DNA from: Sphyrna mokarran | Taxonomy: Eukaryota | DNA: 64,000 nucleotides | Assembly (NCBI GenBank): GCA_024679065.1 | Contig: JAGIQG010000009.1 | Location: forward strand, 73,222,001-73,286,000 | Reading direction: 5' to 3' | Part shown: positions 801 to 55,872 of the stretch, one piece after another | Layout of the letters: every line of letters begins with the position of its first letter | Position numbering within the stretch: the stretch's first letter is position 1 | Notes under the pieces: generated by a model | What the model was told of the DNA's origin: nothing | Seen by the model: the letters and a program-made list of their open reading frames with translations, nothing else | Database searches by the model: none | Made by a program: the position numbers and the translations under genes

Positions 801-1347
801 GCCAAAATGTCCTCAGTGCAGAGAGAAACTCGACTAGCCTGTTGTAACAAAGAAAAATGAGATTGGTAGGTTTATCTGTGGCCCAGCAATGTGCTTCAGA
901 GATGTAATTCATTTGATGGATTTAGGTGCACGGTTAATGCTCTACTTATTACAATGAAAATTTTTGCCATGATTAGATATTTCTTGCTATTATAGGAGTA
1001 TTATTCATGATAATCGAACCAGACTTTATTATTTCATGATTTGGCCTGACTTGAAGCTGAATGAAGTATGTGAGCACCCATTAATTCTGAGCTCATCTGG
1101 TCTGTAATTTGAAAGTTCAATATCTTTCACTTCTTTTTGATTGAACTTTAATTGAAGTTCAGGGATGCTTCCAGCTTCCCTTTTGTTCAAATCAATAAAT
1201 AAGTTACCACCAGTGCAGGGACAGATTATACATTATTGTATTAGCTGAAGTGTTGTTATATTATTAAATTTGAAATTGCTTTCAGCATGCTCTGAGATTT
1301 TCACTTTCTTCAATGAAATTCCAAATCAATATGTTTGTTTTTCACAG

Positions 1348-1535
1348 AAATATCTGGCTCTGCAGAAGAGATTCCCCTTGTTCGCTGGAGGCAGCAATGG
1401 CTAGAAAATGGAACTCTGCTTTTCCACGTCCACCATCAGAATATAGCTCATCGTTTACCAGGCCTTATCCCGACTATCTACTCTCAGACTGATTCTGCAG
1501 AGGATGAACTCCGAATCCTTCACATTTCTGTCATG
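1348..1535 (+). CDS. ASTN1: Astrotactin-1 internal coding exon (equivalent to mammalian exon 2; precedes the first transmembrane segment)
   Basis: Translates (E)[62 protein letters not shown]. This matches recalled ASTN1 ([23 protein letters not shown]...[14 protein letters not shown]) better than ASTN2 ([20 protein letters not shown]). Acceptor tttgtttttcacag ends at 1347, donor ATG|gtcagt starts at 1536; the preceding intron is phase 1 and the following one phase 0. Confidence 0.93.
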
Positions 1536-2482
1536 GTCAGTCACTCCACTTTATCATTTTCTTCCCTTTTGATTATTAACTTCAAATTATTTTTATCTTC
1601 CATTGTTAAAATTTTCTTTGATCTTGAACACCTACCTATATGTTGATGTGGTTCTGAGCTGAGTCGAATGAGTTGTCTTGTTAGTTCTATCTTCATTGGC
1701 AGGTAGAAGTTGGTGAGTTGCTTTTCCATAACAATTTTGATATTGCAAGGATGATGTTTGGAGGAATTGTGCTTGGGAAGATTATCAACTGTCAAATAAT
1801 GAATAGATTCAAAGCATTTGGAGAGTGAAAGCTCTCACAGTCCTCACAGTTGAAGCAAATTTCAGTGATGTGTAACGCTGAGAGGATAAGCATAAACATC
1901 TTCTGATACTGTATTATTGATTTGGAAAGTTCCTATTGATTGACAACAGTATTGTTAACAATGTGTTCTTGTATTTTTGTTCATGGAAAACCCTGTGTCT
2001 GAGCCTCTTATTGTTGCACTCATACATATAGATAGTTTTAAAATAACTGATGTGGAACATTCTCTAATGATTATGGGTAGCAAAGTACCTCCATCCAAAG
2101 GATGCAAGTTCATATCTTTCTTAAAATGGGTAACAAGAGTATACTAATCTATGGCACAATGTGCACAGCTTCATCGAAATGCACAACATTTTTTTTTGTT
2201 TATTGGAATGTATTCCCTATCTTGTTTGATAGACAGCAGAGTACTTGCATGTTACAAATATTTGCATAATTACTGGGTCAAAATCATAATCATCTTGTGA
2301 TAATTGCAGTTGAAAAATGAATGGAATGATACAATTAGGACCGGATGATTCTGAGAGGTTTGGGTTGACACTAGGTAATTTTCCACTCTTCCAGCAATCT
2401 CACCAGGCCAGTGACAATGTAGCCATCCATTTCTCACTCAACTGACTTTAGCAGATGCTCTGAGGTCACATTAGCATTTGAC

Positions 2483-10892: not shown

Positions 10893-11616
10893 CTAGTTGG
10901 CAAGCTAAATTGATTTTCCTGGAGTTGCTTCTAAACTATTGGGTAAAGGAAATTAATTTCTTTTGTGAAATGTATTAATAATATTGAATTATTTTTGCTT
11001 TCAGCTAATGAGGGGAATGCTACACTGATAAGTGAAGTTAGCTTTATTGATGTAGTTTTTTTTGATGTTTTGCTTGTTTTATATTATTTTTAAATGAACT
11101 TAGAATCTTCACCACTGGAAAATTACCTTCTATCTATTCAATTTATTTATTTAAGAAGAATATTTTGAAGACAGTGTGATAAGTTTTCTGGTCTTGCCTG
11201 CTGTGGGAATTGTCATGGCTAGGATGGAAAAATTGCTGGGCCATTTAAAAGTTCATTGACCTTGGATAAATATATCCAATTTTGGAATATTAATTGCTGG
11301 GTCCCGACAGATAGCATCATATATAAGGATTATTTCTTATTACCAAGAATTTTCAATGACTATATCTTTTGTTTCTTTAATGTAAGTGTTGTTTAGCTGA
11401 TACATTTGTTTTAAATGTACTTAAGTATTCTTCTTCTTTAGTCTTGTGAAATCATGCCTCTGTTGTCAATTGACACAAACTTCTGCTCAAATTTCATTTG
11501 TTTCCCAATTTAGGTAGGATTCACTTTAGTTGAATGATGTTGTCTGGAATTCATCGATCTCGCTTGTCCTGTCACCACTGCCAGTGCAAATGGGGAATTG
11601 TGTTCAGCCAAATAAA

Positions 11617-11900
11617 GCCAGCACAGTAACACAGTGGTTAGCACTGCTGCTTCACAGTGCCAGGGACCCAGATTCGAATCCTGGCATAGGTCATTGTCTG
11701 TGTGGAGCTTGCACGTCCTTCCCATGTCTGCATGGATTTCCTTCTGATCCTCCGGCTTCCTCCTACATTCTGAAAAATATGCTCGTTAGGTGCATTGACC
11801 CAAACAGGTGCTGGTCAGATGATGGCGACTTGGAGAATTTCACAGTAACTTCAATGCGATGTTAATATAAGCCTTACTTGTGACTAATAAATAAACTTAA
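11617..11900 (+). mobile_element. tRNA-derived V-SINE
   Basis: cacagtggttagcactgctgcttcacagtgccagggacccagattcgaatcc head; tail ccttacttgtgactaataaataaactt. Confidence 0.88.
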
Positions 11901-30849: not shown

Positions 30850-31108
30850 AGTGGAGTTTGCACGTTCTCCCCGTGGTTGCGTGGGTTTTCTCCGGGCGCT
30901 CCGGTTTCCTCCCACATCCCAAAAAATTCGCTCTTAGGCTGATTGGGAAACAAATTGTCCCTACATTGAGACTCTTACATATTAGGAATAACCTAAAATT
31001 AGAATAGGATAATGGAATTGTTACTATATAGTTATGACGACGGTGCGGGCTCGTTGGGCCGAAGGGCCTGTTTCCCGTGCTGTGTTGCTCTAATCTCTTA
31101 AAAAAAAA
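30850..31108 (+). mobile_element. CpG-rich headless V-SINE variant with CR1 tail
   Basis: V-domain gcgtgggttttctccgggcgctccggtttcctcccacatcccaaa; tail gcgggctcgttgggccgaagggcctgtttcccgtgctgt then A9; related to 54117-54432. Confidence 0.8.
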
Positions 31109-50059: not shown

Positions 50060-50368
50060 TGAGGGTAGCACAGTGGTTAGCACAGCTGCCTCACAGCGTT
50101 GGGGAGTCGGGTTCAGTTCCATTCTCAAGTCACTGTCTGTGTGGAGTTTGCATGTTCTCCTTGTGCCTGTGTGAATTTCCTCTGGGTGCTCCGGTTTCCT
50201 CCCACAGTCCAAAGATGTGCAGGTTAGACTGAATGGCAATGCCAAATTCACCCTAGTGTCAGGGGATTAAATAGGTGGTGTTACAGGAATAGAGCCTGGG
50301 TGAGATTGTGGTTGGTGCAGACTTGATGGGCTAAATGGCCTTCTTCTGCACTGCAGGGATTCTATGAA
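50060..50368 (+). mobile_element. tRNA-derived V-SINE with CR1-type tail
   Basis: gtagcacagtggttagcacagctgcctcacagc head; tail gatgggctaaatggccttcttctgcactgcagggattctatg. Confidence 0.9.
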
Positions 50369-53834: not shown

Positions 53835-54965
53835 CCAGTTGCTTGAAAGTGATCTGAGTGTACAGTTACACGGGTCACTGAAAATGGCAATGCAGGTGGA
53901 AAAGCCAAGAAGGCATATGGCATTAAGTTTAAAAATTGGCAAGTCATGTTGCAGCTTATTGATGTATTTGTTTTTATCCTACAGGTGCTTTGGTCCACCT
54001 TGTTGTCTAATGAGGGGCATACACGTGATGGGTCGTGAGAGGACTGCTCTTGGATCTTTTTTGAGAGTATCCTACTGCATCACGTCGTTAGTGTACGCTT
54101 GACCTGGACCATCTGATGGGCAACACGACAGCTCAGTGACTATCGCTGTGTTGTGCAGAGACATGGATTTGGGCTTGTGTCTGTGGGAGTTTACGCATTC
54201 TCCCCGTGCTTGCGTGGGTTTTCTCCGGGAGCTCCGGTTTCCTCCCACATCCCAAAGATGTGCTCTTAGGCTAATTGGCAAAACATTCTCCCTAAATTGT
54301 CTCAAATTTGGTTTTTAATCCATAGATCTATAAACATGGACAGGGATCGCGGGTAGAGGTGGGAATATGGGGGTGGCGGCGCGGGCTCGTTGGGCCAAAG
54401 GGCCTATTTCCCGTGCTGTTTTTTCTTTGTTCTTTATAGAACTTTAGTTAGGTCGCAGTCGGAATATAGTGTTCAATTCTGGTCACCACACAATGAGAAG
54501 GATGTGGAGGCTTTGGAGAGGGTATGGAAAAGATTTACCAGGATGTTGCTGGTACGGAGGGCATCATCTATGAGGAGAGGTTGGAGAAACCTGGTTTGTT
54601 CTCACTAGAATGATGGGTATTGAGGAGTGACCTGATAGAAGTCTACAAGATTATGAGGCAGTTTGGATAGTCAGAAGCTTTTTTCCCAGGGTGGAAGAGT
54701 CAATTACTAGGAAGCATAGGTTTAAGGTGAAGATGTATGAGGCAAATCTTTTTACACAGAGAGTGGTGGGTGCCTGGAACTCGCTGCCAACAGAGGTTGT
54801 GGAAGCAGATACGATAGTGACTTTTAAGGGACATCTTGACAAATACATGAATAGGATGGGAATGGATGGATACGGTCCCCGGGGGCATGAGGTGTTTTAG
54901 TGCAGTTGGGCAGCATGGTCAGTGCAGGTTTGAAGGGCCTTAGGGCCTGTTCCTGTGCTCTAATT
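53835..54965 (+). mobile_element. CR1 3' end split by a composite insert
   Basis: gtcatgttgcagcttat | tatagaactttagttagg rejoin; ORFs LYRTLVRSQSEYSVQFWSPH..KDVEALERV and FTQRVVGAWNSLP. Confidence 0.88.
53961..54432 (+). mobile_element. Composite retroposon: unknown structured 5' module + degenerate-head V-SINE + CR1 tail
   Basis: Sits as one block inside the CR1. 54117-54432 has a V-domain and CR1 tail with retained CpGs; 53961-54116 is not SINE-like. Confidence 0.65.
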
Positions 54966-55696
54966 TTCTTTGTTCTTTGATAGGCATAATGCGTAATTGG
55001 TTAAACAATACTCACCACCTATGACATCCAAATGGACACAAAATACATCAAATTGACTATTCTGTAATGGTAGAGACTGCAAACTGTCATTTTCTAATGT
55101 TAAAAATTTTGGCACTGCCTTTGGTATGTGGCTCAAAGACTTAAAGCTCACTATGTCTGGGATATCTAATAGCCTAATCTTATGATCAAGTAACCCAGAA
55201 TGATAACAACAAGATTTCCTAATGCTATAGAGTGCCTTTTACAATAGTCCTCATTCGATATTCAACCAAGAGAACTTCAGATAATTTATTAAGCTAAGGC
55301 CAGAAAATCTGCTTTATTTAACAAAGAGAAAATGTATTTTTTTAATTTCATTCATGGAATGTGGGCAACACTGGCTGGCCAACTGATAACGAAGAATACA
55401 ATTTTAGACATCTTGTGCTGAAATCAATGTGTAGGTTACTCATAAAATAAAAGGTCGGAATGCCTACACTGATCCCCATTATCTAAACCATTCTGGTTGA
55501 GGCTTCTTTGATCTATATTTTGCAGCTGTACCGTTTTGTGAATTCATTTCCCAAAGACCTCTTAATAGTCATTTTGTTTTTTTTTTAAACATAAATTAGC
55601 TCAGTAAGCTCTAATGTCAATAATTCTTGAAATGCAACATCTTGGTGTGACAATTTGAAACTTTCAACAGATCTGGTTCATTCTCATTATTCAGAA

Positions 55697-55872
55697 AAGG
55701 TGGTGTCACAGTTGTTAGCACTGCTGCCTCACAGCACCAGGGACCCAGGTTCAATTCTGGCCTTGGGTGACTGTCTGTATGAAATTTGCCTGTTCTCCCT
55801 GTATCTGCATAGATTTCCTGCGGATGCTCCGGTTTCCTCCCATAGTTCAAAGATGTGCAGGTTAGGGATTCT
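55697..55872 (+). mobile_element. tRNA-derived V-SINE, 3'-deleted
   Basis: gtcacagttgttagcactgctgcctcacagcaccagggacccaggttcaattc head and V-domain. Confidence 0.85.

What the first reader, a model, noticed from the sequence alone, without database searches (positions are those of the whole stretch)
53982..54115. Unassigned ~120-nt three-way-junction RNA at the 5' end of a composite retroposon
Seen in sequence, pairing done by eye on the + strand. P1 TGGTCCA(53991-53997)/TGGACCA(54105-54111), extendable by CAGGT/ATCTG. P2 hairpin CCTTGTT-gtct-AATGAGG (53998-54015). A long P3 arm: GCATACAC(54017-24)/GTGTACGC(54091-98, one mismatch), GTGATG/CATCAC, GGT/ACT, AGGA/TCCT, bulged C, TGCTCTT/GAGAGTA, GGA/TTT. 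The two large bulges lie in near-identical motifs GTCGTGAG (54032) and GTCGTTAG (54084). Many G-U pairs favour the + strand RNA, and CpGs are retained in a CpG-poor intron. I cannot match it to 5S, tRNA, 7SL or a hammerhead. Inference: a structured RNA module (ribozyme, protein-binding or stabilising element, or captured ncRNA) carried by a non-autonomous element.
Basis: partly seen in the sequence, partly recalled or inferred. Interest (0 to 1): 0.75.

Follow-up and report, generated by a model that had tools for sequence, protein, structure and literature searches.

The report
Folded RNA in CR1 retrotransposon tails
The predicted RNA fold sits in the 3' untranslated tail of a very abundant family of self-copying CR1 retrotransposons, just behind a splice-acceptor-like signal, and the two have been kept together across ten subfamilies, so it likely helps the unspliced transposon RNA get exported or handled rather than acting as a ribozyme.

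Summary
The helices are at the stated coordinates and fold better than shuffles (123 nt, z -3.9). The context is misread. This is not the head of a non-autonomous retroposon: the window copy (53957-54435) is a 5'-truncated CR1 LINE in an astrotactin intron. In G000, 80 of 100 unselected copies run on into ORF2, and near-full-length copies carry an esterase ORF1, endonuclease and RT. A 26-mer beside the module has 28,035 exact matches. The module lies in the 3' UTR between a pyrimidine tract + CAG|G and a captured V-SINE body. Ten subfamilies (pairwise module identity down to about 70%) keep the acceptor consensus, closing helix and long arm, with 8 of 46 pairs doubly changed, while flanking spacers turn over. 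The small arm is eroded in one subfamily and deleted in another, so the conserved core is a long irregular hairpin, not a three-way junction. The twin bulge motifs and one helix rest on private mutations. There is no Rfam or ribozyme match, and at most 1 spliced-looking copy in 70 examined. Best guess (0.4): a cis-acting export or RNP element paired with an orphan 3' splice site. No RNA data were obtained.

The parts
53957..54435 (+). 5'-truncated copy of a CR1-clade LINE (subfamily A1); 3' UTR only; TTAT at both junctions (53956-59, 54434-37)
   Evidence: 95.6% identity over 481 columns to L024, which continues into ORF2
53959..53985 (+). 3' splice-site consensus: branch-like TTGAT (A at 53962), pyrimidine tract, CAG|G; use in RNA untested
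   Evidence: Tract (8-10 pyrimidines of 10) and CAG|G in 10 of 10 subfamily majorities; yTnAy at -20 to -27 in 8 of 10
53992..54110 (+). Structured module, closed by P1 (53992-53997 with 54105-54110)
   Evidence: z -3.94; GGTCC/GGACC invariant in all subfamilies; helix 100% paired
53998..54015 (+). P2 side hairpin; dispensable (eroded in D1, deleted in D2)
54016..54099 (+). Long irregular P3 arm, about 33 pairs; family register 54016-24/54091-99, 54025-30/54083-88, 54035-38/54075-78, 54041-54/54060-73
   Evidence: 90% of cells paired; 7 of 33 pairs changed on both sides
54119..54270 (+). Captured V-SINE body: decayed tRNA-like head (box B lost) followed by V-domain-like core; end approximate; name HE1/V-SINE recalled
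   Evidence: Aligns from its first bases with free SINE copies in the window; 85-99% identical between families A, B, C, D; ARAGORN finds no tRNA
54374..54435 (+). CR1-type 3' tail stem-loop and (GTTCTTT)n end
   Evidence: Shared by all families; D ends in another repeat; also at the end of the host LINE
53880..53956 (+). Left part of an older CR1 ORF2 fragment of another family, interrupted by the insertion
   Evidence: Translation ..KNWQVMLQL continues as YRTLVRSQ.. after 54436
54436..54975 (+). Right part of the same older CR1 fragment; its short 3' UTR has neither acceptor nor module
   Evidence: model R1 finds only one module in the window

Best explanation
The stretch is a predicted ~120-nt hairpin-based RNA fold in the 3' UTR of an autonomous CR1 LINE clade, placed 7 nt behind a conserved splice-acceptor consensus, and it likely acts in cis as an export or RNP-licensing element for the unspliced LINE RNA. 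Shown: the LINE context, the copy number, the order ORF2 stop - variable spacer - acceptor consensus - fold - V-SINE body - variable spacer - CR1 tail, and retention of folding stability across subfamilies. Inferred: selection acted on the active source elements, not on this dead copy. Inferred mechanism: the orphan acceptor recruits 3' splice-site factors (U2AF/SF1, recalled to couple to TREX/NXF1). The stable stem starting 7 nt into the would-be exon limits completion of splicing and offers a protein-binding surface. The intronless RNA is then treated as processed mRNA while ORF2 stays intact.
For: LINE context: 80 of 100 copies reach ORF2; 52 of 90. Constraint on the fold: subfamily majorities give z -3.1 to -6.0 in 9 of 10, with C at -1.5 (-3.3 with a larger C set and tighter ends). 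When the substitutions between families are placed at random, the real sequence folds better in 15 of 15 comparisons (z -1.8 to -6.2). For A2/B/D0 the six values are -2.9 to -5.6, against +1.2 to -3.4 in 24 control comparisons. 92% of cells pair against 38-46% for slid partners; 8 of 46 pairs are doubly changed. Acceptor: CAG|G is invariant while the bases just after it and the tract letters vary; it survives spacers that range from about 20 to 170 nt; 30 such sites occur in 128 kb of background. Splicing is rarely fixed in DNA. Precedent for position: an L1 export element spans the ORF2 end and 3' UTR start (PMC3045867, passages).
Against: No RNA, binding or export evidence was obtained. Held-out covariation is weak: above the null mean in 11 of 12 tests but P<0.05 in only 1. 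The structure was derived from these same related sequences. Module identity is not above ORF2 four-fold sites in 2 of 3 pairs (0.81 vs 0.87, 0.73 vs 0.76, 0.84 vs 0.70). The random-placement null is biased towards negative z. The twin loops of an MPMV-type CTE (recalled) are absent. The host CR1 at 54436-54975 spread without acceptor or module. The L1 element was dispensable in intron-bearing reporters.
Confidence: 0.4

Rival explanations
1. The acceptor is used: splicing from an upstream donor makes an ORF2-less RNA (ORF1-only or non-coding), or traps host exons in sense-intronic copies, and the fold is an exonic element of that product.
For: Acceptor consensus in 10 of 10 subfamilies. Family B has GTG|GTAAGT before the ORF1 start in most of 30 5' ends, and GTAA follows ORF1 in both families. 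L337 joins ORF2 GAG|GTG exactly to the acceptor. Family-A 5' ends cluster 11-42 nt above the AG: 11 of 88 against 4.5 expected, P 0.007, window chosen after the fact. That is where a branched template would stop RT.
Against: 0 genome matches for the B 5' UTR donor exon within 12 nt of the module. 0 of 60 5'-end loci are joined at a donor. Only 1 of 70 examined (of 190) non-native module starts is a LINE-internal junction, and it has a 6-nt microhomology. Family A lacks the 5' UTR donor. The cluster is absent in B/D (1 of 29) and U-rich microhomology joining explains it too (PMC4245944, passages).
Confidence: 0.2
2. The fold is a second binding site for the LINE's own ORF1p/ORF2p that improves RNP assembly or template choice; the acceptor-like run is a U-rich linker.
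For: Stringent LINEs bind 3' RNA stem-loops through ORF2 (PMC4176376, passages). The fold co-varies with LINE subfamilies. B/D copies are far less truncated than A copies.
Against: The known-type tail stem-loop is present separately and is shared with elements lacking the module. This reading does not explain the invariant CAG|G.
Confidence: 0.18
3. Acceptor, fold and SINE are an inert relic of one capture of a host or SINE-containing exon into the 3' UTR, kept only by descent and general selection for folded UTRs.
For: Module identity is close to neutral levels; held-out covariation is weak; P2 was lost without harm; the lineages are few and related.
Against: Spacers on both sides were rewritten or deleted while the block stayed colinear. 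Folding stability is retained beyond controls. No free source of the module appeared among 70 non-native starts.
Confidence: 0.14
4. The long arm is a Drosha/Dicer or dsRNA-protein substrate that limits the element's own RNA.
For: About 33-36 pairs from junction to loop, near the recalled pri-miRNA size; the loop begins with UGU in most subfamilies.
Against: The base is closed by P1 instead of single-stranded flanks. The recalled basal motifs are missing or misplaced. Family A has no UGU loop. No miRNA family matches the module.
Confidence: 0.05
5. The module is a self-cleaving ribozyme.
For: A UUCACGU loop-like run and a CNRA run recall HDV-like ribozymes (recalled; sequence).
Against: My HDV-like descriptor (not validated on a positive control) and the hammerhead cores find 0 of 10 subfamilies. 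80 of 100 copies read through; no position inside the module has more than 2 5' ends. [quoted passage not shown]
Confidence: 0.03

Closest known systems
CR1-clade LINEs of sharks and rays (HER1) and their partner V-SINE HE1
   Same: Esterase ORF1, endonuclease + RT ORF2, stem-loop and microsatellite tail; V-SINE body and tail in the same order. HE1/HER1 pairing is listed in PMC3747384 (passages); esterase ORF1 as a canonical CR1 trait in PMC13343379 (passages).
   Different: Here a whole decayed V-SINE plus a 150-nt acceptor + fold block sits inside the LINE's own 3' UTR. I could not compare with HER1/HE1, Repbase or Dfam sequences (paper not held).
L1 NXF1-binding export element; retroviral CTE/MTE
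   Same: Structured cis element right after the last ORF of an RNA that must stay unspliced (PMC3045867 and PMC11379458, passages).
   Different: No twin internal loops (feature recalled for MPMV CTE); tied to an acceptor consensus; export activity untested.
L1 internal splice sites and SpIREs
   Same: Splice signals inside a LINE (PMC5860796, abstract and outline).
   Different: L1 acceptors there lie in the 5' UTR/ORF1 and leave spliced retrocopies; this one lies after ORF2 and leaves at most 1 candidate in 70 examined.
MER6 MITE carrying a V-SINE
   Same: A V-SINE captured and spread by another transposon after losing independence (PMC6887750, passages).
   Different: The carrier there is a DNA transposon; here it is an autonomous LINE and the captured part is transcribed in its RNA.
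HDV-like ribozymes of R2/RTE/Ingi LINEs
   Same: Similar size; carried by a non-LTR element.
   Different: 3' rather than 5' position; no double pseudoknot found; copies read through.

Membership tests
CR1-clade LINE (carrier) | ORF1 with esterase domain | tested here: met
   PF13472 E 6e-8 (above cut-off) in L071, 4.5e-5 (below cut-off) in L079
CR1-clade LINE (carrier) | ORF2 with endonuclease and RT | tested here: met
   PF03372 in L071 (family A); PF00078 in L074 and L076 (family B); A and B ORF2 about 80% identical
CR1-clade LINE (carrier) | 3' stem-loop and short tandem repeat instead of poly(A); staggered 5' truncation | tested here: met
CR1-clade LINE (carrier) | Placement in an RT tree with named CR1 references | not tested
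   No named references on hand
Head of a non-autonomous composite retroposon/SINE | Shared discrete 5' end at the module | tested here: not met
   5' ends are scattered; 80 of 100 copies reach ORF2
Head of a non-autonomous composite retroposon/SINE | Intact Pol III promoter or small-RNA-derived head | tested here: not met
   No Rfam or ARAGORN match; box B lost in the tRNA-like part
V-SINE body (54119-54270) | Similarity to free tRNA-head + conserved-core SINEs | tested here: met
   Aligns with several free copies in the window; the name V/HE1 is recalled
V-SINE body (54119-54270) | Match to the published HE1/V-domain consensus | not testable with these tools
   Paper not held; no Repbase or Dfam
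U2-type 3' splice site | Branch motif, pyrimidine tract, YAG|G, AG-free zone | tested here: met
   Tract and CAG|G in 10 of 10; branch motif in 8 of 10; no other AG within 30 nt in 9 of 10
U2-type 3' splice site | Use in splicing, seen as spliced retrocopies | tested here: inconclusive
   0 matches, 0 of 60, 1 ambiguous of 70
U2-type 3' splice site | Junction reads in RNA | not tested
   No read or contig alignment was obtained
Conserved three-way junction | All three helices kept in all lineages | tested here: not met
   P2 eroded in D1 and deleted in D2
HDV-like ribozyme | Nested double pseudoknot with C75 in CNRA | tested here: not met
   0 of 10 subfamilies with my descriptor, which had no positive control
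HDV-like ribozyme | 5' ends of copies at one cleavage site | tested here: not met
HDV-like ribozyme | Self-cleavage in vitro | not testable with these tools
   Needs bench assay
Hammerhead ribozyme | CUGANGA and GAAA cores (recalled) | tested here: not met
   Neither motif in 10 of 10 subfamilies
Any Rfam family (5S, tRNA, SRP, snoRNA, miRNA, SECIS) | Covariance-model match | tested here: not met
   No hit on the module in families A, B2, B, C, E, D
MPMV-type CTE | Two identical internal loops (recalled) | tested here: not met
   Twin motifs differ outside family A and are largely paired
MPMV-type CTE | NXF1 binding and export of unspliced RNA | not testable with these tools
   Reporter assay described in PMC11379458
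pri-miRNA hairpin | About 35-bp stem with single-stranded flanks and basal motifs (recalled) | tested here: inconclusive
   Stem length fits; flanks are paired by P1; motifs checked by eye only

The most novel reading that the evidence does not exclude
A CR1 clade keeps a live 3' splice site behind ORF2, gated by a hairpin. Spliceosome engagement licenses export of the full RNA. Occasional branching creates RT stops that seed promoterless acceptor-bearing copies just above the AG, and tens of thousands of such copies act as exon traps in host introns. That would be a splicing-coupled LINE life cycle not found in my searches.
Probability: 0.1. Interest if true: 0.78.

Novelty: new variant of a known kind. 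Interest (0 to 1): 0.45.

Why it matters
CR1-group elements make up 22-34% of shark and ray genomes (PMC13343379, passages). Apart from the short tail stem-loop, cis-acting RNA elements in their 3' UTRs did not turn up in my searches. A fold plus acceptor kept through ten subfamilies, with a natural arm deletion and register shifts, is a ready-made allelic series for testing how intronless LINE RNA is exported. It is also a potential source of many cryptic acceptors in host introns. This copy itself is an ordinary dead insertion.

Tried and rejected
Rfam: three searches, no hit on the module. ARAGORN: none. Tandem repeats: none here. Exact patterns in metagenome and viral contigs: 0. Earlier scan notes: none. 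Coding reading: the open frames over the module are not kept in families B or C. Box C/D reading (ATGATGA ... CTGA): the C-like motif is confined to family A's spacer. SECIS reading: the RUGA motif is only in family A and there is no partner GA. Ribozyme readings: see rivals. Excess mutation at the AG in inserted copies: 5 of 122 positions, not clearly above other sites. One L005 fold was cut short of P1 (z -2.3) and is not used. Ogiwara 2002 is not held. Supplements of the papers were not read; the consensus libraries of PMC13343379 may already contain these LINE families.

Full report
Observation. RNAfold returns the three-helix fold: z -1.97 for 53982-54120 (9 of 200 shuffles as good) and z -3.94 for 53990-54112 (0 of 200). 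The minus strand gives z -1.2 and -1.7. Rfam has no match on the module for this copy or for relatives. The window begins with an astrotactin exon on the + strand and the next matched exon is about 260 kb further on, so the insertion is sense-oriented in an intron.

Context. A genome search gave 876 candidates; the 40 scored were 96-100% identical. Of the 29 other loci fetched, 26 share at least 64 more bases upstream and 23 run into a reading frame ending ..GMEGYRKLI*. Near-full-length copies of about 4.5 kb (L071, L079) carry an esterase-like ORF1 and endonuclease, and sister copies carry RT. This is the canonical CR1 layout (PMC13343379, passages). A 26-mer just 3' of the module has 28,035 exact matches. 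Among the first 100 listed, about 90 keep the module and 80 reach ORF2; a few are segmental duplicates. In a second sample anchored nearer the tail, 66 of 90 keep the acceptor and module and 52 pass the ORF2 stop. The window copy, 53957-54435, is therefore an ordinary 5'-truncated insertion, sitting inside an older CR1 of another family. The host is shark-like by inference from these elements.

Anatomy of the 3' UTR. In families A, B, B2, C, D and E the order is: ORF2 stop, spacer of about 20-170 nt, pyrimidine tract with CAG|G, the fold starting 7 nt later, a tRNA-like and V-domain-like SINE body, a second variable spacer, and the tail stem-loop with a short repeat. The spacers differ in length and sequence; the central block is colinear. 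The SINE body aligns from its first bases with free SINE copies in the window but has lost box B. The names HE1 and V-SINE rest on recall plus the table in PMC3747384 (passages). A loose pattern for acceptor + closing helix has 13,136 matches against 191 for its control and revealed further subfamilies.

Is the fold selected? For: per-subfamily majorities fold with z -3.1 to -6.0 in 9 of 10 (C -1.5, old and CpG-decayed). Placing the inter-family substitutions at random destroys stability in 15 of 15 comparisons. The six A2/B/D0 values (-2.9 to -5.6) mostly lie beyond 24 control comparisons (+1.2 to -3.4). On 13 real copies 92% of cells pair, against 38-46% for slid partners, and 8 of 46 pairs change on both sides (11 of 500 shuffles reach this). 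Against: that structure came from these related sequences; an earlier alignment without family D had only 2 of 34 such pairs. Structures predicted from one family and scored on another beat the null mean in 11 of 12 cases but reach P<0.05 once. Module identity (about 70-94%) is not above ORF2 four-fold sites in 2 of 3 pairs. Registers slip between lineages, which weakens column statistics. I judge a selected fold likely but not proven.

GTGATG/CATCAC needs two private changes; the family pairs 54025-30 with 54083-88. The twin motifs are specific to family A. P2 is eroded in D1 and deleted in D2, a young subfamily with 9 copies in hand at about 1% divergence. The conserved core is thus a long irregular hairpin closed by GGUCC/GGACC, with an optional side arm. 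CpGs decay normally in inserted copies.

The acceptor. CAG|G and a tract of 8-10 pyrimidines in 10 are present in 10 of 10 subfamilies, and a branch-like yTnAy at -20 to -27 in 8 of 10, while the bases just after the G vary. In B and D the spacer has shrunk to little more than this signal. Evidence of use is thin. The strong donor in the family-B 5' UTR is never found within 12 nt of the module. None of 60 5'-end loci is joined at a donor; one has a microhomology deletion elsewhere and one an assembly gap. Of 190 module starts with non-native upstream bases I examined 70: the first 30, plus 40 chosen mostly for ending in AG. One, L337, joins ORF2 at GAG|GTG to the acceptor but shares 6 nt of microhomology. 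The rest are mutated native sites, truncations or fold-backs; some unique flanks could not be assigned. Family-A 5' ends are enriched 11-42 nt above the AG (12 of 66 in the 50-nt bin; 11 of 88 against 4.5 expected, P 0.007 with a post hoc window), and the window copy starts there. B/D show 1 of 29. A branched template or U-rich microhomology joining (PMC4245944, passages) could each explain it. No RNA evidence was obtained.

Mechanism. I commit, at 0.4, to a cis-acting export or RNP-licensing element: an orphan acceptor attracts 3' splice-site factors, the adjacent stem restrains splicing and binds protein, and unspliced RNA is exported with ORF2 intact. The placement resembles the L1 NXF1-binding element (PMC3045867, passages); the factor-level steps are inference from recalled biology. 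Rivals: productive splicing or exon trapping (0.2), ORF1p/ORF2p binding (0.18), inert relic (0.14), small-RNA precursor (0.05), ribozyme (0.03). The ribozyme reading fails on read-through, scattered 5' ends and descriptor searches; LINE ribozymes are reported at 5' ends of other clades (PMC5786205, passages).

Novelty. The carrier is a known kind. The fold has no Rfam family. Five paper searches on CR1, V-SINE, 3' UTR, splice acceptor and export terms (listings, with passages of the papers cited) did not describe it. Repbase, Dfam, most subscription papers and supplements were not seen. Verdict: real feature, wrong context, new variant of a known kind of retrotransposon cis element; interest 0.45.

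Noticed in passing
window 1347-1574 (+): Astrotactin (PF19441) exon; the gene spans about 880 kb of C1548, with a paralogue on C827.
   Followed up: partly
window 30853-31100 (+): A family-D copy of the same LINE clade truncated inside the V-like core, ending in (CTCTTAA)-type repeats; also sense to the host gene.
   Followed up: partly
L079:5085-5270 and L082-L111: Family-B 5' UTR has a TATA box and a strong donor GTG|GTAAGT before the ORF1 start; family A keeps the TATA-like motif but lacks the donor.
   Followed up: partly
window 54119-54270 and homologues: The decayed SINE body is more conserved between LINE families (85-99% for A, B, C, D) than the module or ORF2 four-fold sites, suggesting constraint on the V-like core inside a LINE RNA.
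   Followed up: partly
L302-L331 versus L372-L461: B/D copies are much less 5'-truncated (4 of 29 within about 500 nt of the acceptor) than A copies.
   Followed up: no
L160, L221, L338, L352: Several 5' junctions are short fold-backs or duplications of the P2 hairpin sequence, as expected if RT or repair stalls at that hairpin.
   Followed up: no
L154, L157, L162, L361-L364: Copies often start directly behind the (GTTCTAT)n tail of another LINE family, suggesting targeting of or template jumps to those tails.
   Followed up: no
L003:1437-1500, L005, L022, L150: Four copies begin at nearly the same point just after the ORF2 stop.
   Followed up: no
L105:350-1750 (-), L337, L113: Internally deleted derivatives joining 5' LINE parts to the module or tail through microhomology.
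   Followed up: partly
window 11600-11800, 50060-50245, 55690-55870: Free tRNA-headed SINE copies with the same conserved core.
   Followed up: partly
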